In this document: positions 5,153 through 63,412 of the stretch, in pieces
How the letters are laid out: every line of letters starts with the position of its first letter
Numbering within the stretch: position 1 is the first letter of the stretch
Sequence record: NC_031103.1
DNA: 64,000 bases
Direction: 5' to 3' (one strand)
From: Escherichia phage vB_EcoM-UFV13
Program-made: the position numbers and the translations under genes
Notes under the pieces: model-generated
Told to the model about the DNA's origin: nothing
What the model saw: only the letters and a program-made list of their open reading frames with translations
Databases searched by the model: none

Positions 5153-5572
5153 TTATTCCTTAAAATGTGCTTTCAACATCTGATACAAGGACCATGCCTG
5201 TTCATTATTTTCAATAGTAATTTTCATTACCGGGAATTCTGTGAAATCTTCTATCTGTTCTTGCTCTTCCTGCTCTTGTTCTTCAGCAGCCTGATATGGA
5301 TTTCCCACTTCATCAAAAAATTCGGCTTCGTTAGTAGAGAGCCAGATAAAGTTTTCGTCAAGGATATCACCATGTGTTGCATATCCAATTGTGCCAGTAA
5401 ATGACATAATTTTAGTAGGACGCCCAAGATGGTCAACATCTAAAATTTTAAAAGGATGCATACCTAAACGTCGTGCATAAATTCCGTTATCAGTATGGTC
5501 CTTGATAAAAGCTTCTTGAGCTTGTTTATTTTTAAATTGATACCATTTATTAACTTCAAATCTAATAGCCAT
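5153..5572 (-). CDS. hypothetical protein with acidic EQ-repeat
   Basis: 139-aa ORF; size and position would fit T4 goF but sequence not recognised. Confidence 0.5.
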
Positions 5573-7796: not shown

Positions 7797-7826
7797 ATAA
7801 TACCACAACTAACCGAGGAAGTAAAC
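7797..7826 (-). promoter_or_regulatory. early promoter
   Basis: GTTTAC-18-TATTAT. Confidence 0.5.
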
Positions 7827-16425: not shown

Positions 16426-16626
16426 ATGGTACAAAAATTAATGGCACTTGTTAATGCCATCAAAGGTAATAAAAAACGTATAGCTTTTACTATTTCTGCT
16501 ATGGTAGGAATTTTACTCTGGAACTTTATTTTATCACCTGTTGCAATTGCACATGGTATTAATATTCCAGTAGTTACTCTTGATACATTTGTAGATTTAG
16601 CATTTGCTTTAGTTGGGTTAATTTAA
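16426..16626 (+). CDS. small hydrophobic protein on the opposite strand
   Basis: 66 aa; AGGAGGA 3-4 nt before ATG; fills the 56-61 gap; no competing minus-strand ORF. Confidence 0.4.
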   Translation: MVQKLMALVNAIKGNKKRIAFTISAMVGILLWNFILSPVAIAHGINIPVVTLDTFVDLAFALVGLI

Positions 16627-17651
16627 ATCTTAGCATATTTAGATAGCCGCATTTTAGCCATTAACCCCTGCGCAATATTATTTTTCATATATTCCATAAT
16701 CTGTTCAGGGGTTGCACCTTCCTTTCTAATCATATCATTGACATCTTTTGATTTCCAGGGAGATTTATCCCAAAACATAACCCTTTCTCCTGCATCAACT
16801 AATTTAGTCATTCGCTTGATAGTGTCAGGGTGACGAGGTTCATTATCTAAGACCCACACTCGTCTATCTTTAAATGGAACAACTTCTAGGTCTAATTGAC
16901 CACCCGTAATAGCTATACCATTTTCAATAAAAAGCGAATCTATAGGTCCTTCTAGAACATATACATCACCATCTTTAACTCGTTCAACACCGTAAATTTT
17001 TGTTGCCTCAGGATAAGCTTTGATGGTGATATACTTTTGTGGAGCATCTTTCTTTAATGCACGTCCTTGAAAAGACTCAGCTTTTCCATTTGCATTATAA
17101 ATTGGAATAACAAGACGAGGCTCAGAAATTTCCTTTTTGTATGTTCCCGGTGCTATGCTATTAACTAATTTAGGCCATTCGGTTGTAAACCAAAGATATT
17201 TCCATTTATCCTTTGGAATACAACGAGCTTTTACATATTTTATAATTGGATGGTCTTCCGCCAGTTTATCTAATCTAACACATGACGGAAGAGATTTAAT
17301 TATTTTCTTCTCAGGTTGTTTAGGAAGTTCTTTAGGTTTTTCTACTGGACGACTTTTACCTTTTTCTTTTCTTATTTCAAAGATATACTCACGATATAAA
17401 TCAGGTTCAAACTCCTTTAAATATATTCCGATTGGTGCGTGATAGTTACAGTTATAACAATGAATATTTCCTTCATTATTATCACCATAATACCATCCAC
17501 GGGCTTTATTTTGGTCGGTTTTTGAATCTCCACAAACAGGACATCTAAACCGCAATTTAAAAGTTGAACTATTATTTACTTGTGTGAATTTAGGTAAATG
17601 AGCTAATGCACGATATGCAAACTCATTATCAATCCAAGGTATTGATGACAT
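16623..17651 (-). CDS. 61: DNA primase gp61
   Basis: 342 aa; N-terminal zinc ribbon CPVCGDSK...CYNC; matches T4 gp61. Confidence 0.9.
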   Translation of the reverse strand: MSSIPWIDNEFAYRALAHLPKFTQVNNSSTFKLRFRCPVCGDSKTDQNKARGWYYGDNNEGNIHCYNCNYHAPIGIYLKEFEPDLYREYIFEIRKEKGKSRPVEKPKELPKQPEKKIIKSLPSCVRLDKLAEDHPIIKYVKARCIPKDKWKYLWFTTEWPKLVNSIAPGTYKKEISEPRLVIPIYNANGKAESFQGRALKKDAPQKYITIKAYPEATKIYGVERVKDGDVYVLEGPIDSLFIENGIAITGGQLDLEVVPFKDRRVWVLDNEPRHPDTIKRMTKLVDAGERVMFWDKSPWKSKDVNDMIRKEGATPEQIMEYMKNNIAQGLMAKMRLSKYAKI

Positions 17652-17653
17652 TT

Positions 17654-17818
17654 TTACTCTTCTTTTTCTTTAGATTCCTCTTTTTTCTTTTTAGGAATCT
17701 GTTCAGGACCTTTATTTACTATAGCACCTGACGTTGTTCCAGTGGAGATATTTTCAGGATTACCACCTGAATCTCCAGCTACCATATCTTCTTTGATAAA
17801 TTCTTTATATGTTTTCAT
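17654..17818 (-). CDS. 54-aa protein with capsid-targeting-like N-terminus (T4 61.1 position)
   Basis: Hand-translated MKTYKEFIKEDMVAGDSGGNPENISTG...; not in track; TAATATG coupling. Confidence 0.45.
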   Translation of the reverse strand: MKTYKEFIKEDMVAGDSGGNPENISTGTTSGAIVNKGPEQIPKKKKEESKEKEE

Positions 17819-17819
17819 A

Positions 17820-18176
17820 TTAACCTCTATTCATAAAAGCATTAAAAATTTGGTCATCAATTGATGGAACAGCAACCTTTTCTACATCATTTAACAAATC
17901 ATTAATTTCATCAGATAGCATAACGCATGTACCTTTATTTCCTGTAATTGTTACTGCGCAATTACGAACGTTTTCTTTATCAAATTTTAGGTTAATATTT
18001 TCGTAGTGAAAATCCTTTAATGCCGAATATATTTTTAAAATGAAATTGTCTTTTACTACAATAAAACCGACTTCACTATTAAAACGCGGCTCATGAAAAC
18101 TGTAATAAACCTTTTCATCTATAAAATCGTATGAAATTTTTTCCATTTTTAAATATGAAAATTCAGAACTATACAT
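17820..18176 (-). CDS. hypothetical protein (T4 61.2 position)
   Basis: 118-aa ORF between 61.1-like and sp. Confidence 0.5.
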   Translation of the reverse strand: MYSSEFSYLKMEKISYDFIDEKVYYSFHEPRFNSEVGFIVVKDNFILKIYSALKDFHYENINLKFDKENVRNCAVTITGNKGTCVMLSDEINDLLNDVEKVAVPSIDDQIFNAFMNRG

Positions 18177-18188
18177 ACTAACCTCTAA

Positions 18189-18482
18189 TTACTCACCTAC
18201 CACTTCAGCGATGATATTTTTATTATTGAAGTTTTTATCACAATACAGAACGTAATTATACTGCATTACACCACCAGACTTAAGTTGTTTTTGCACTTCA
18301 GCTTTCATTTCAGGACGATCACGCTCAACGATATTCATAATATCCGCTTCAATTTGAGTTTCAACTTCAGTCTGATCTGCAGTCATAGACCATTCACACA
18401 AATCTTTGTCATAACCCGCCATAGCAGGCTGAGCAGCGCAAGAAGATAAAGCAAAAATTGCAGCAAAGATAAATTTTTTCAT
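18189..18482 (-). CDS. sp: Spackle periplasmic protein
   Basis: 97 aa; cleavable signal peptide MKKFIFAAIFALSSCAAQPAMAG; size and position as T4 sp. Confidence 0.7.
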   Translation of the reverse strand: MKKFIFAAIFALSSCAAQPAMAGYDKDLCEWSMTADQTEVETQIEADIMNIVERDRPEMKAEVQKQLKSGGVMQYNYVLYCDKNFNNKNIIAEVVGE

Positions 18483-18508
18483 GATAATCTCCTCAGTAGT
18501 TTATGTTT

Positions 18509-18538
18509 ATAGTATCTCAATTTTCAACAAAAGTAAAC
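18509..18538 (-). promoter_or_regulatory. early promoter upstream of sp
   Basis: GTTTAC-18-TACTAT. Confidence 0.55.
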
Positions 18539-18585
18539 ACTAGTAGAAGCAAACAGACAAATTGCAATAATTGGTGATTTCAGTT

Positions 18586-18780
18586 TCATTCTTCTCCTCC
18601 TTCATGTTGATGAACATATTCTTTTTCAAGTCTAGAGCACAAGTTTTCATATTCAACTAATAAAAATGAATCAAGTGCGTTATTTCTATGCTGACACCGT
18701 TCTTGTAAAGAATCCATCTCTGAACGTTGTTCTTGCGTTAATAATTGATAACCTGATACTTTAGACATTTTGTTCTCCAT
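18586..18780 (-). CDS. hypothetical small protein
   Basis: 64-aa ORF; alternative ATG at 18768 has better SD; own early promoter. Confidence 0.45.
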   Translation of the reverse strand: MENKMSKVSGYQLLTQEQRSEMDSLQERCQHRNNALDSFLLVEYENLCSRLEKEYVHQHEGGEE

Positions 18781-18804
18781 TTACTCGTTTGTTTTGATAG
18801 GTCT

Positions 18805-18833
18805 ATAATAACATGTTTAAAACAAAAGTAAAC
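18805..18833 (-). promoter_or_regulatory. early promoter
   Basis: GTTTAC-17-TATTAT. Confidence 0.5.
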
Positions 18834-19087
18834 TATTTTATTTCCTCAAGTTCGTTAATCAATAAAAGTTCTCTGACGCTAAAAACAAAGAAAAATGTGT
18901 TCCCATCAACCAGAGCATGACCGCTAATAGAACACCCTCTGCGGAATTTAGAAACTTCACAATCTAGAACTGTAAAGGGTTTTAATCCTATGACTTTAGC
19001 TGTGCGTCTATTCAGTTCACAACCACTTGCGAATTTTTCCAAATCTTCTTCTGATTTAAACTGATATTCTCTATTAACTAGCATCAT
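18833..19087 (-). CDS. hypothetical small protein
   Basis: 84-aa ORF with own early promoter. Confidence 0.5.
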   Translation of the reverse strand: MMLVNREYQFKSEEDLEKFASGCELNRRTAKVIGLKPFTVLDCEVSKFRRGCSISGHALVDGNTFFFVFSVRELLLINELEEIK

Positions 19088-19118
19088 TTTCTTTTCTCCG
19101 CGATTAGCTGATAGAATT

Positions 19119-19148
19119 ACTATAACACAACTCTATCAGCTTGTAAAC
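19119..19148 (-). promoter_or_regulatory. early promoter
   Basis: GTTTAC-18-TATAGT. Confidence 0.5.
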
Positions 19149-19150
19149 TA

Positions 19151-19393
19151 CTATTTTACTATCATCAATAACTGTTTCTCTAACTTGACTATTTTACGAA
19201 AATACCTTTTACACTGACGAATCTGTCGCTTCGTAGGACGTACAGCAAACTTAATAAATTCCACTCGACCAAATGGAGGACTTTCTTCTGCTGGAATATC
19301 TAACACCAATTCCCACGTATCGGCAATAAGTGCTTTGAATTGCGTATTTTTCCTGACGCTATACGGAGTAGGTTTAAATAAAACAATATGCAT
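19151..19393 (-). CDS. hypothetical basic protein
   Basis: ATG at 19393 one nt after dmd stop, preceded by GAGGA. Confidence 0.5.
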   Translation of the reverse strand: MHIVLFKPTPYSVRKNTQFKALIADTWELVLDIPAEESPPFGRVEFIKFAVRPTKRQIRQCKRYFRKIVKLEKQLLMIVK

Positions 19394-19394
19394 A

Positions 19395-19577
19395 TTATCC
19401 TCGGCAATCCACTTCACATACTTTCTTGTCATCAATGAAAGCTTTAACTAATGCTTTATTAACTTCAGCATATTGAGTAGTAGCCCATTGAACGTCATCT
19501 TTCATCATTGTGATTTCTTTAGTAAACATGCTTTCATTCTTAAACCACCCCATAAAAACTACCTTTACCAATTCCAT
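19395..19577 (-). CDS. dmd: Dmd, antitoxin against host RnlA/LsoA RNase toxins
   Basis: 60 aa MELVKVVFMGWFKNESMF... matches T4 Dmd as recalled. Confidence 0.9.
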   Translation of the reverse strand: MELVKVVFMGWFKNESMFTKEITMMKDDVQWATTQYAEVNKALVKAFIDDKKVCEVDCRG

Positions 19578-19606
19578 AACAATCTCCTCATTTAACCAAC
19601 AAGACT

Positions 19607-19636
19607 ACTATACCATAGTCTTGTCAGCTTGTAAAC
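19607..19636 (-). promoter_or_regulatory. early promoter upstream of dmd
   Basis: GTTTAC-18-TATAGT; -35 abuts gene 41 stop. Confidence 0.55.
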
Positions 19637-21063
19637 TAAAATTTTAATTCATTCGCCAAAGCATCTAACTGAGCTCGAGTCGATTCGTTTCTTTGATAGC
19701 GATTCTGTTCAGCCTGAATCTGTTGTGAACCTGCTACCTCACTCACTTCAGTTGGAGTAGAATCTTGTTCAATTTCTACCCATTTCTGATTTCCTTTTTG
19801 AACACCCATCAAAAACTTATTCCACTTATTCTTATCACCATATCGTGATTTGATTTGCTTAATGAGTTGTTGTTCAGCAGCTGCTAACTCCTCAGTTTCA
19901 ATGACCGCAAGCATAAAATCAGCTGTTGCTGGAAGACCGGCAGATTCTGCAATATCGCTCATGTTAACATCGGAAGAGTCCCAAGCTTGTTTACCGACCT
20001 GTGCTGCAGTCCAAAGAACAGTTTCTGTTTCAACAGCCAGAGCACGCAATTCCTCTGCAATAGCTTTAACAGTTGTGTAACTATTTTCTGAATAAACTCT
20101 AATGCGGCAAGATTTACAAATACCTAGATAGTCGACAATAATGATTGTTGGAACAAAATTCTTCTTGAGCTTCAATTCGTTTAAAAGTGATCGAAATGTA
20201 TTAGCATCTGCTCCACCAGTAGGATACTGTTTAACGATTAAACGCCCAAGAGTAGATTTCTCACGCCATTTTTCCATTTTTCCTTTATACTCAGCGTAAG
20301 AAATATGTCCATCATCAATATCGTCAAGAGAAACATCGAGCATATTAGCGTCAATACGTTTAGCACAGACTTCTTCTGCCATTTCCATGGAGATATAAAG
20401 AACGTTATGACCAAGCTGCAAATAATCTGCTGCTAATGAACAAAGTCCTAATGATTTACCAACGTTAACCCCAGCCATTAAAACGTTCAGTGTTCCAGTC
20501 TCAGCTCCGCCTTTAGTAATTTTGTTTAGAATTCTGAGTTTAAATGGAACCTTACGAGCTTTATTCATATAAGATAGCCAACGCGCTTCATAGTCATCCA
20601 TCCAATCATGACCAACGTAGCTATCAAATGAAATTGATAATGCTTGGCGCATGATGTCAGGAATAGCACCTACATCTGGCATTTTCTTATTTCGTTTTTC
20701 CGGAGGAAGCTCAGCATTGGTTTGAATTTCGATTATTTTAGACGTAGCATTAAACATCGCCCTTTGCTGAACATATTTTTCTGTTTCTTTTACTAACCAG
20801 CTGTGGTCTTCTGGAGAATCAGCCAGTTTTGAAATAAGTGTTTTTACACCAGAATATTCTGTTTCAGTAAATGAACTATTTTCTAATGCAACATTTAACG
20901 CATTAATAGATGGAACGCTATGGTACTCATTAACATGAGATTTAATTAATTTGAATGTATTTTTAGCTGGACCACTTTCAAAATATTCTGAATCCATATA
21001 TGGCCAAACTTTTGAAAAATAAGCTTGATCAAATATAAGATGAGAAAGAATAATTTCTACCAC
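19636..21063 (-). CDS. 41: replicative DNA helicase gp41 (DnaB-like)
   Basis: 475 aa; Walker A GVNVGKS; matches T4 gp41. Confidence 0.9.
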   Translation of the reverse strand: MVEIILSHLIFDQAYFSKVWPYMDSEYFESGPAKNTFKLIKSHVNEYHSVPSINALNVALENSSFTETEYSGVKTLISKLADSPEDHSWLVKETEKYVQQRAMFNATSKIIEIQTNAELPPEKRNKKMPDVGAIPDIMRQALSISFDSYVGHDWMDDYEARWLSYMNKARKVPFKLRILNKITKGGAETGTLNVLMAGVNVGKSLGLCSLAADYLQLGHNVLYISMEMAEEVCAKRIDANMLDVSLDDIDDGHISYAEYKGKMEKWREKSTLGRLIVKQYPTGGADANTFRSLLNELKLKKNFVPTIIIVDYLGICKSCRIRVYSENSYTTVKAIAEELRALAVETETVLWTAAQVGKQAWDSSDVNMSDIAESAGLPATADFMLAVIETEELAAAEQQLIKQIKSRYGDKNKWNKFLMGVQKGNQKWVEIEQDSTPTEVSEVAGSQQIQAEQNRYQRNESTRAQLDALANELKF

Positions 21064-50262: not shown

Positions 50263-50299
50263 TTTGTGTTCCTCCGTAGTTGATAGTTGTATAGTACCA
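50258..50299 (-). repeat. 42-bp exact direct repeat, copy 2
   Basis: Identical to 25301-25342. Confidence 0.7.
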
Positions 50300-50320
50300 C
50301 AGAGGAACGGTCTTGTAAAC
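50291..50320 (-). promoter_or_regulatory. early promoter with conserved leader cassette
   Basis: GTTTAC-18-TACTAT; leader identical to cassette at 25301-25342. Confidence 0.55.
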
Positions 50321-59516: not shown

Positions 59517-59546
59517 ATTATACCACAGTCAAGAGGAAAAGTAAAC
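59517..59546 (-). promoter_or_regulatory. early promoter upstream of regB
   Basis: GTTTAC-18-TATAAT. Confidence 0.55.
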
Positions 59547-63382: not shown

Positions 63383-63412
63383 ATAGTATCAAAACCCTTG
63401 GAGGAAGTAAAC
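63383..63412 (-). promoter_or_regulatory. early promoter upstream of denV
   Basis: GTTTAC-18-TACTAT. Confidence 0.55.

What the first reader, a model, noticed from the sequence alone, without database searches (positions are those of the whole stretch)
18586..19393. Three small genes with their own promoters between sp and dmd
Between spackle and the antitoxin dmd there are three small ORFs (64, 84 and 80 aa), each preceded by its own early promoter. As I recall T4 has only one gene in this interval. Genes around dmd are expressed immediately after infection and known neighbours act against host defences, so extra small proteins here are plausible counter-defence factors.
Basis: inference. 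Interest (0 to 1): 0.45.

Follow-up and report, generated by a model that had tools for sequence, protein, structure and literature searches.

The report
Two extra early-gene cassettes beside dmd-tifA
In this T4-like phage the stretch between spackle and dmd holds the known ToxN inhibitor tifA plus two small accessory genes that T4 lacks, each with its own early promoter; the layout is already present in a dozen sequenced phages, and the two extra genes have not been characterised.

Summary
The three ORFs are real, and T4 does have only one gene here (61.4). Two corrections apply.

- **tifA.** The 80-aa ORF (19151-19393, minus strand) is T4 61.4, the published ToxN inhibitor (96% identical). 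It starts one base after the dmd stop and has no promoter of its own.
- **orf60.** The '64-aa' ORF most likely starts at its second ATG, giving 60 aa (18586-18768).

Only orf84 (18833-19087) and orf60 are extra genes. Each is a self-contained unit of early promoter, ribosome-binding site and ORF.

All four combinations occur among relatives: neither (T4), orf84 only (SH7), orf60 only (Ec_MI-02), both (ime09, PP01, this window). The breakpoints fall in the shared -35 box (GTTTACTTTTGTT) or in the shared GGAGAA ribosome-binding site. This matches the promoter-cassette (PeSL) and microhomology shuffling already described for T4-type phages.

orf84 is a stand-alone relative of the GoF N-terminal domain, part of the published LSm/SH3-like fold family. 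It is under strong purifying selection and stays in the gene 41-61 region in two other phage lineages. orf60 is an orphan predicted to form one long helix.

A counter-defence role for either extra gene is plausible from location and timing, but there is no direct evidence. Overall this is an ordinary, previously sequenced variant of a known variable locus and a reasonable candidate list for experiments.

The parts
19607..19636 (-). Early promoter of the dmd-tifA operon (GTTTAC-N18-TATAGT). It is overlapped by a 15-bp hairpin at 19594-19629.
   Evidence: Pattern match. Hairpin -20.2 kcal/mol, z -4.4. Published as the promoter that drives dmd and tifA in T4.
19395..19577 (-). dmd (60 aa), the antitoxin against the RnlA and LsoA toxins
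   Evidence: Pfam PF17587, 156.9 bits. 100% identical to T4 Dmd.
19151..19393 (-). tifA, T4 gene 61.4 (80 aa). It is translationally coupled to dmd and has no promoter of its own.
   Evidence: 96% identity to T4 gp61.4. Pfam DUF7279 72.8 bits against a cut-off of 24.5. The ATG lies 1 nt after the dmd stop, and the ribosome-binding site GAGGA is inside dmd. No promoter match between 19148 and 19607.
19119..19148 (-). Early promoter of orf84 (GTTTAC-N18-TATAGT). A 14-bp hairpin (19106-19141) covers the spacer, the -10 box and the transcription start. This regulatory region is a 70% identical copy of the dmd regulatory region.
   Evidence: -19.1 kcal/mol, z -4.2. Direct repeat D1 and inverted repeat I3. 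The hairpin is kept in homologous cassettes L014 and L016 through G-U and compensatory changes.
18833..19087 (-). orf84: an accessory early gene encoding a stand-alone relative of the GoF N-terminal domain (LSm/SH3-like fold family)
   Evidence: PHROG 2980, E 3e-20. 29-31% identity to GoF proteins over 93% of its length. Purifying selection. Present in 82 phage records. Absent from T4.
18805..18833 (-). Early promoter of orf60 (GTTTAC-N17-TATTAT, with TG before the -10 box)
   Evidence: Its -35 region GTTTACTTTTGTT is shared with the sp promoter and is the breakpoint in phages that lack orf60.
   Evidence: PHROG 37915, profile of 60 positions aligned to residues 5-64. GGAG lies 6 nt before the ATG. 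Found in 19 phage records, all 97-100% identical. One protein cluster among 5.8 billion. AlphaFold2 predicts a single helix at residues 12-56, pLDDT 89.
18509..18538 (-). Early promoter of sp, which forms the right-hand boundary of the inserted cassettes
   Evidence: alignments A1 and A4.
18189..18482 (-). sp (spackle, 97 aa), the flanking conserved gene
   Evidence: Pfam PF25676, 153 bits.

Best explanation
**What is there.** The sp-dmd interval of this Tequatrovirus is part of a known variable early-gene region between genes 41 and 61. It contains the following units.
1. The dmd-tifA operon, read from one early promoter. Dmd neutralises the RnlA and LsoA RNase toxins. TifA traps the ToxN RNase on RNA.
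2. Two additional single-gene cassettes, orf84 and orf60. Each consists of a T4-type early promoter, a ribosome-binding site and a short ORF.

**How the cassettes came and went (shown by sequence).** They were gained or lost independently by recombination between short repeated regulatory sequences. These are the A-rich stretch plus the GTTTAC -35 box of neighbouring early promoters, and in one case the GGAGAA ribosome-binding sites. This is the PeSL or microhomology shuffling described for T4-type phages.

**What the two extra genes are.**
- Shown: orf84 is a one-domain paralog of the GoF N-terminal domain and is kept by purifying selection.
- Inferred: orf84 forms an SH3/LSm-like small barrel, possibly stabilised by a Cys3-His site.
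- Predicted: orf60 is an acidic amphipathic single helix.

**How they most likely work (inferred).** Both are made within the first minutes of infection. Each most likely acts stoichiometrically by binding a host or phage RNA-metabolism factor or a host defence factor. A counter-defence role is possible but not shown.
For: **Identity of the known genes**
- dmd, tifA and sp are identified by Pfam.
- tifA is 96% identical to T4 gp61.4, which was renamed tifA and shown to inhibit ToxN and to be co-operonic with dmd (mechanism).
- T4 has only 61.4 in this interval.

**Promoters**
- 21 early-promoter matches against 0.16 expected, all on the minus strand. Four serve sp, orf60, orf84 and dmd; none serves tifA.

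**Independent presence and absence**
- T4 has neither cassette, SH7 has orf84 only, Ec_MI-02 has orf60 only, and ime09, PP01 and GEP001 have both.
- Record counts in the phage collection: both cassettes 15, orf84 near-identical 69, orf60 19, out of 513 records that match the region.

**Breakpoints**
- SH7: within GTTTACTTTTGTT, shared by the orf60 and sp promoters.
- Ec_MI-02: at GGAGAA, shared by the two ribosome-binding sites.
- T4 versus GEP001: at TTAAAATA..GTTTAC.
- orf84-only phages match the junction probe up to exactly that box.

**Published mechanisms**
- PeSL promoter consensus TTTACW-N17-TAYWAT and cassette shuffling.
- 6-10 bp microhomology recombination observed experimentally at dmd-tifA.

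**orf84**
- Homology to GoF and the published GoF fold family.
- pN 0.13 against pS of about 0.8.
- Foldseek against viral models returns almost only T4-like phage proteins, including a GoF.
- Homologs stay in the 41-61 region in SP18 and in metagenomic phages.

**orf60**
- Single-helix model with pLDDT 89.

**Composition**
- GC of both cassettes (0.33-0.35) equals the phage average.
Against: - There is no functional evidence for orf84 or orf60.
- orf60 varies too little (0-1 substitutions per pair) to test for selection. A confident single-helix prediction is weak evidence for a folded product.
- The hairpins overlap the promoter rather than lying upstream of it as described for PeSLs. They lack a U-tract, and no terminator-like site was found. 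The orf60 and sp promoters have no significant hairpin (z -0.9 and +1.1).
- Promoter activity and early timing are inferred from sequence only.
- The direction of each event (insertion or deletion) is not resolved.
Confidence: 0.8

Rival explanations
1. One reading: orf84 and/or orf60 are new counter-defence proteins. They would act, for example, as inhibitors of a toxin-antitoxin or abortive-infection RNase, extending the dmd-tifA-adfA 'anti-TA island'.
For: - Both genes lie directly beside dmd and tifA, and adfA sits in the same 41-61 region in related phages.
- Both have immediate-early promoters.
- Their patchy, independently assorting distribution is typical of accessory counter-defence genes.
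- The orf84 family stays linked to tifA or dmd in three lineages. In L016 it sits immediately upstream of tifA, with its stop abutting the tifA start, where dmd sits in T4.
- Srikant et al. name neighbours in this region as antitoxin candidates.
Against: - Neither protein resembles a known anti-defence protein.
- GoF-family knock-outs show no growth phenotype under the laboratory conditions tested, and the only reported effect is on RNA stability, from a mutant allele.
- The region also holds genes with other roles. One is sp; its T4 record note links it to lysis and lysozyme, and from my own knowledge it acts in superinfection exclusion.
- Variable regions of T4-type phages carry many genes of unknown function, so a location argument is weak.
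Confidence: 0.27
2. orf84 acts like GoF. It would be a small LSm/SH3-like protein that tunes the stability or Rho-dependent termination of phage early mRNAs, possibly the neighbouring gene 41 or dmd-tifA transcripts, rather than acting on host immunity.
For: - orf84 is homologous to the GoF N-terminal domain over its full length.
- That domain carries both rho-suppressor mutations, D25Y and G84R, and GoF(D25Y) stabilises RNA carrying the gene 41 5' region.
- Conserved hairpins flank the cassette.
Against: - Wild-type GoF had no effect in the reporter assay, so the family's normal function is unknown.
- orf84 lacks GoF's linker and C-terminal domain.
- orf84 has G at the position aligned with GoF D25 (read from the alignment).
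- The window already encodes a full GoF at 5153-5572.
Confidence: 0.2
3. The two extra ORFs are neutral cargo of promoter cassettes. They would be ORFans that spread by recombination and give the phage no benefit, and orf60 might not be translated at all.
For: - orf60 is an orphan found in only 19 records, all near-identical, with no measurable selection.
- Most phages with this region lack both genes and are viable.
- ORFans beside PeSLs are common.
Against: - orf84 is clearly under purifying selection and is kept at 56-81% identity in other lineages.
- orf60 has a good promoter and ribosome-binding site, and its only length variant is an in-frame 3-nt deletion.
- T4 capsid size limits genome length, so useless DNA tends to be lost.
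Confidence: 0.15

Closest known systems
T4 dmd-tifA (61.5-61.4) operon and the proposed 'anti-TA island' (Srikant, Guegler & Laub 2022, PMC9391042; Guegler et al. 2023, PMC10853763)
   Same: - The same two genes occur in the same order, with the same promoter and the same 1-nt gap between them.
- TifA is 96% identical to the T4 protein. F41 and the basic stretch K55/R56/R59 are present.
- Recombination at short repeats around this locus was seen in the laboratory.
   Different: - Two extra single-gene cassettes lie between tifA and sp.
- tifA has a different C-terminal tail: 80 aa ending LLMIVK, against 85 aa in T4.
- Full-length adfA (61.2) is absent and is replaced by a 118-aa paralog of its C-terminal half.
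[quoted passage not shown] 2025, PMC12152347)
   Same: - orf84 aligns with GoF residues 1 to about 90, sharing the motif VNxxYQFK...G..PF.(I/V)LD.
- It is an early gene.
- It is found only in T4-like phages.
   Different: - orf84 is the N-terminal domain alone, with no acidic linker and no C-terminal domain.
- It carries a conserved C23/C43/C52/H57 set that GoF lacks.
- It sits in the 41-61 region, not next to gene 39.
- The RefSeq label 'goF mRNA metabolism modulator' overstates what is known.
PeSL (promoter-early stem-loop) mobile regulatory cassettes of T4-type phages (Arbiol et al. 2010, PMC2839356; Comeau et al. 2014, PMC4122927)
   Same: - The promoters fit the PST/T4 consensus TTTACW-N17-TAYWAT.
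- The cassettes flank small ORFs that differ between close relatives.
- Breakpoints lie inside the promoter motifs.
   Different: - The stem-loop of the orf84 and dmd cassettes overlaps the spacer and the -10 box instead of lying just upstream.
- The orf60 and sp promoters have no significant stem-loop.
- One junction, in Ec_MI-02, used the ribosome-binding site rather than the promoter.
Phages ime09, PP01, IME339, JoYop and GEP001 (GenBank and RefSeq records)
   Same: The gene order is identical (sp - orf60 - orf84 - tifA - dmd) at 96-98% nucleotide identity. The ORFs are already annotated as hypothetical proteins.
   Different: None of significance. This window is another member of that group.

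Membership tests
TifA (T4 gp61.4; Pfam DUF7279, PF23945) | Sequence membership above the curated threshold and close identity to the tested T4 protein | tested here: met
   72.8 bits against a cut-off of 24.5. 73 of 76 residues identical to T4 gp61.4.
TifA (T4 gp61.4; Pfam DUF7279, PF23945) | Lies immediately downstream of dmd and is co-transcribed with it | tested here: met
   The ATG at 19393 is 1 nt after the dmd stop. There is no early-promoter match between 19148 and 19607. Operon structure as published.
TifA (T4 gp61.4; Pfam DUF7279, PF23945) | Basic RNA-binding residues and interface residue 41 | tested here: met
   Positions 55, 56 and 59 are K, R and R, and position 41 is F, identical to T4 TifA. 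The mutated residues were defined in the RB69 homolog, and I did not align that sequence.
TifA (T4 gp61.4; Pfam DUF7279, PF23945) | Inhibits the ToxN endoribonuclease | not testable with these tools
   Needs co-expression or plaque assays.
GoF / LSm-like fold family of Tevenvirinae (applied to orf84) | Detectable sequence homology to the GoF N-terminal domain | tested here: met
   PHROG 2980, E 3.2e-20. BLASTP E 2e-8 to T4 GoF. 29-31% identity over 93% of orf84 to many GoF proteins. Alignment A3.
GoF / LSm-like fold family of Tevenvirinae (applied to orf84) | Bent five-stranded antiparallel beta-sheet (LSm/SH3-like barrel) | tested here: inconclusive
GoF / LSm-like fold family of Tevenvirinae (applied to orf84) | Two-domain build: N-terminal domain, flexible linker, C-terminal domain | tested here: not met
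   orf84 ends where the acidic linker of GoF begins. It is a domain-only relative, not a GoF ortholog. The true goF of this phage is at 5153-5572.
GoF / LSm-like fold family of Tevenvirinae (applied to orf84) | Effect on RNA level or suppression of rho-mutant restriction | not testable with these tools
   These are genetic and biochemical assays.
PeSL regulatory cassette (applied to the orf84 and orf60 cassettes) | Strong sigma-70-like early promoter fitting TTTACW-N17-TAYWAT, followed by a ribosome-binding site and a start codon | tested here: met
   consensus taken.
PeSL regulatory cassette (applied to the orf84 and orf60 cassettes) | Stem-loop just upstream of the promoter that acts as a terminator | tested here: inconclusive
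   orf84 has a 14-bp hairpin (z -4.2), but it overlaps the spacer and the -10 box and has no U-tract. The orf60 hairpin is not significant (z -0.9). No terminator-like site was found.
PeSL regulatory cassette (applied to the orf84 and orf60 cassettes) | Sits at insertion or deletion boundaries between closely related phages | tested here: met
   Breakpoints lie in the -35 box or the ribosome-binding site in SH7, Ec_MI-02, T4 and GEP001.
Known phage anti-defence proteins (Dmd-like antitoxins and others), applied to orf84 and orf60 | Homology to a characterised anti-defence protein | tested here: not met
   No such match in Pfam, PHROGs, NCBIfam or PDB sequences.
Known phage anti-defence proteins (Dmd-like antitoxins and others), applied to orf84 and orf60 | Neutralises a defence system in vivo | not testable with these tools
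   Needs plaque or toxicity-rescue assays.

The most novel reading that the evidence does not exclude
At least one of the two accessory genes is a new inhibitor of a host RNase-type toxin or abortive-infection system. The stronger candidate is orf84, a Cys3-His small barrel of the GoF family that heads the tifA operon in a lineage where dmd was not seen in the fetched locus. If so, this would extend the dmd-tifA-adfA island and give the GoF/LSm-like family its first natural function.
Probability: 0.22. Interest if true: 0.55.

Novelty: new member of a known kind. Interest (0 to 1): 0.25.

Why it matters
If orf84 or orf60 proved to be a counter-defence factor, it would add a member to the small set of phage antitoxins encoded next to dmd and tifA. 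For orf84 it would also give a first biological role to the GoF-type domain, which is common in T4-like phages. As it stands, the locus is a clear natural example of cassettes being swapped at promoter and ribosome-binding-site repeats. These swaps occur at the same place where laboratory evolution produced microhomology-driven amplification. Natural phages with all four gene combinations already exist, which makes comparative host-range tests cheap.

Tried and rejected
**Searches that found nothing useful**
- Rfam on the whole window at gathering thresholds and on 18100-19700 at E up to 1: no RNA family.
- Tandem repeats in 17500-20000: none, so there is no pseudo-toxI-type RNA decoy array.
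- PDB sequence searches with the orf84/GoF profile and with orf60: nothing meaningful.
- NCBIfam: no hits.
- IMG/VR scan with Dmd: only 5 loci, four T4-type and one with orf84 only.
- The accessory-gene screen of Silas et al.: the main text of the 2023 preprint was searched for this locus and its genes, and Dmd appears only as a control. The supplements of the 2025 Nature Communications paper were searched for the peptide sequences, with no match.

**Searches with limited or spurious results**
- Full HMMER scan of 1.84 billion representatives with orf84: three hits. One was a close homolog, one a repeat protein, and one a spurious eukaryotic zinc-finger protein.
- Fold search with the single-helix orf60 model was not run, because any long helix would match.

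**Ideas rejected**
- The 94-aa TTG-started version of the tifA ORF that overlaps dmd. The validated T4 gene starts at the ATG.
- Foreign origin of the cassettes. Their GC content is the same as the rest of the phage.
- Counting the orf84-only and gene-free classes with junction probes. The tool joins nearby pieces, so coverage counts would be confounded. Only the 'both' junction was counted.

Full report
**What the window is.** The region 18150-19700 is 98.4% identical to Escherichia phage ime09. It matches 513 records of T4-like phages in the phage collection. All genes here are on the minus strand. Their order is:
- gene 61 (16623-17651)
- 61.1 (17654-17818)
- a 118-aa ORF (17820-18176)
- sp (18189-18482)
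- orf60/64 (18586-18768 or 18586-18780)
- orf84 (18833-19087)
- an 80-aa ORF (19151-19393)
- dmd (19395-19577)
- gene 41 (19636-21063)

**Checking the observation.** The three ORFs exist at the stated coordinates.

The claim that each ORF has its own early promoter is only two-thirds right. The T4 early-promoter pattern GTTTAC-N17/18-TAYWRT occurs 21 times in the window. All matches are on the minus strand, against 0.16 expected by chance. Four of the matches lie upstream of sp (18509-18538), orf60 (18805-18833), orf84 (19119-19148) and dmd (19607-19636). None lies upstream of the 80-aa ORF. That ORF begins one base after the dmd stop codon and has its GAGGA ribosome-binding site inside dmd.

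The 64-aa ORF most likely starts at its second ATG:
- GGAG lies 6 nt upstream of that ATG.
- The PHROG profile is 60 positions long and aligns to residues 5-64.
- GenBank annotations give 60 aa.
- In phage Ec_MI-02 the first ATG is missing while the gene is intact.

**The 80-aa ORF is tifA.** It is 96% identical to T4 gp61.4 and scores 72.8 bits on Pfam DUF7279, against a cut-off of 24.5. Gene 61.4 was renamed tifA after T4 evolved to escape ToxIN by amplifying the dmd-tifA operon, whose promoter lies upstream of dmd. TifA binds ToxN and RNA and traps the toxin in a ribonucleoprotein complex.

The allele here keeps F41, the weaker-binding residue of T4 TifA. It also keeps the basic residues at positions 55, 56 and 59. 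Its last few residues differ from T4: the tail is LLMIVK with a total of 80 aa, against FVTCDYAEILK and 85 aa in T4. The breakpoint is inside the gene.

**The two real extras are independent cassettes.** All four combinations occur among close relatives:

| Cassette content | Example phages |
|---|---|
| Neither | T4 |
| orf84 only | SH7, Ozark |
| orf60 only | Ec_MI-02 |
| Both | ime09, PP01, GEP001, this window |

In the phage collection, orf84 is found in 82 records, 69 of them near-identical and 13 at about 57% identity. orf60 is found in 19 records. The orf84-orf60 junction is found in 15 records, which represent 12 phages.

Alignments show where the breakpoints are:
- **SH7.** It lacks orf60, and the sequence joins within GTTTACTTTTGTT, the -35 region shared by the orf60 and sp promoters (repeat D3). 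orf84-only phages match the junction probe up to exactly that box.
- **Ec_MI-02.** It lacks orf84, and the join is at GGAGAA, shared by the two ribosome-binding sites. As a result orf60 is driven there by the orf84 promoter.
- **T4 versus GEP001.** The breakpoint is at TTAAAATA..GTTTAC.

The start-to-start distances between successive -35 boxes are 315 and 295 bp. The orf84 regulatory region is also a 70% identical copy of the dmd regulatory region over 64 nt.

This is the behaviour described for promoter-early stem-loop (PeSL) cassettes in T4-type phages, whose PST/T4 consensus is TTTACW-N17-TAYWAT. It also matches the 6-10 bp microhomology recombination observed experimentally at this same locus. 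The cassettes have the same GC content as the rest of the phage.

**Hairpins.** The orf84 and dmd promoters are each overlapped by a strong hairpin, at -19.1 and -20.2 kcal/mol with z -4.2 and -4.4. The 5' arm lies in the promoter spacer, and the loop contains the -10 box. Such a hairpin can form only in RNA read through from upstream. Homologous orf84 cassettes in metagenomic phages keep the hairpin through G-U and compensatory changes. The orf60 and sp promoters have no significant hairpin. No terminator-like site with a U-tract was found. The fit to the PeSL definition is therefore partial.

**What orf84 is.** It matches PHROG 2980, labelled goF, at E 3e-20. It also matches the N-terminus of T4 GoF and of this phage's own GoF at 5153-5572. 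A profile search showed 29-31% identity to many GoF proteins over 93% of orf84. The alignment ends where GoF's acidic linker begins.

Kim et al. [quoted passage not shown] They found an RNA-stabilising effect only for the mutant GoF(D25Y). orf84 is therefore a domain-only member of that family, not a goF ortholog, and the RefSeq product name overstates what is known.

My own AlphaFold2 model is weak, with pLDDT 62. Its matches are consistent with the published fold but not significant:
- Foldseek against viral models returns almost only T4-like phage proteins, including a GoF.
- A metagenomic protein with five tandem copies of a unit resembling orf84 residues 34-80 has weak Mind-bomb SH3 and KOW signals.

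orf84 is clearly a real gene. Against homologs of 78-81% identity, pN is 0.13 and pS is 0.74-0.81. The subfamily keeps C23, C43, C52 and H57 down to 56% identity. This suggests a metal site that GoF lacks, but that is inference only.

**Context of orf84 elsewhere.** In Gaprivervirus SP18 the gene order is 41 - orf82 - two ORFs - dmd - sp, with a tifA-like gene further along. In metagenomic T4-like contigs the order is 41 - a GIY-YIG-like ORF - orf83 - (a 50-aa ORF) - tifA-like - sp. No dmd is seen in the fetched locus. In L016 the orf83 stop abuts the tifA start. So the family is a long-term resident of the 41-61 region and can head the tifA operon. This is suggestive but does not show function. 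Most phages that carry orf84 also carry dmd, so the two are not simple substitutes.

**What orf60 is.** It is an orphan:
- One protein cluster among 5.8 billion.
- 19 phage records, all 97-100% identical.
- No Pfam, NCBIfam or PDB match.
- AlphaFold2 predicts a single long helix at residues 12-56 with pLDDT 89.

The sequence shows 3-4 spacing of hydrophobic residues and an acidic tail, read directly from the sequence. Variation is too low to test selection, and the only length change seen is an in-frame 3-nt deletion.

**Function.** The parts that are shown are the gene models, the identity of tifA, the family of orf84, the cassette structure and the breakpoints. The parts that are inferred are immediate-early expression and action by binding a host or phage factor.

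I estimate about one chance in four that at least one extra gene is a counter-defence factor. Arguments for:
- The genes lie next to dmd and tifA, and adfA lies in the same region in related phages.
- They have early promoters.
- Their distribution is patchy.
- orf84 is persistently linked to tifA or dmd.

Arguments against:
- No homology to any known inhibitor.
- No defence phenotype is known for the GoF family.
- Genes with other roles, such as sp, occur in the same region.

**Verdict.** The arrangement is already in at least 12 sequenced phages, and one ORF is a characterised gene. The mechanism that generates such variants is published, and so is the idea that neighbours in this island are antitoxin candidates. 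The two uncharacterised genes remain reasonable, cheap experimental targets.

Noticed in passing
window 17820-18176 (-): The window lacks full-length adfA (T4 61.2, the anti-DarT factor). In its place is a 118-aa ORF that matches only the C-terminal half of the AdfA profile (positions 113-211). Phages GEP001 and Ozark carry both this ORF and a 210-aa AdfA-like gene.
   Followed up: partly
window, the 21 early-promoter matches listed (for example 7797-7826, 50291-50320, 59517-59546, 63383-63412): About 10 of the 21 early promoters have a strong hairpin (z -3 or lower). Its 5' arm lies in the promoter spacer, its 3' arm in the first transcribed bases, and the -10 box in the loop. In several the 5' arm pairs with the ribosome-binding site. 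Only read-through RNA from upstream would then be occluded, not RNA started at the promoter itself.
   Followed up: partly
L014 2179-3640; L016 2179-3483: In metagenomic T4-like contigs the orf84 homolog heads the tifA operon, and its stop abuts the tifA start in L016. No dmd is detected in the fetched locus. A 253-aa ORF with weak GIY-YIG similarity, possibly a homing endonuclease, lies between gene 41 and the orf84 homolog.
   Followed up: partly
P0008 (395-aa metagenomic protein): This protein has five tandem copies of a roughly 75-aa unit that resembles orf84 residues 34-80 (E 7.8e-7). It has weak Pfam signals for the Mind-bomb SH3 repeat and KOW. This hints that the GoF-type domain has cellular SH3-like relatives.
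   Followed up: partly
window 18833-19087 (-), residues 23, 43, 52, 57: C23, C43, C52 and H57 are kept in all six orf84-subfamily sequences, down to 56% identity, and are absent from GoF. This may be a zinc site. It was not tested.
   Followed up: no
window 19151-19175 (-), 3' end of tifA: The tifA allele has an 80-aa form ending LLMIVK, against the 85-aa T4 form ending FVTCDYAEILK. The breakpoint is inside the coding sequence, and both forms occur with or without the cassettes (GEP001 has the 85-aa form plus both cassettes). Residue 41 is F, as in the weakly inhibiting T4 allele.
   Followed up: partly
RefSeq records NC_019503, NC_054930, NC_054942 and others: The orf84 homolog is labelled 'goF mRNA metabolism modulator' in RefSeq, although it is only a one-domain relative. 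The same genomes have a true goF elsewhere; in this window it is at 5153-5572.
   Followed up: yes
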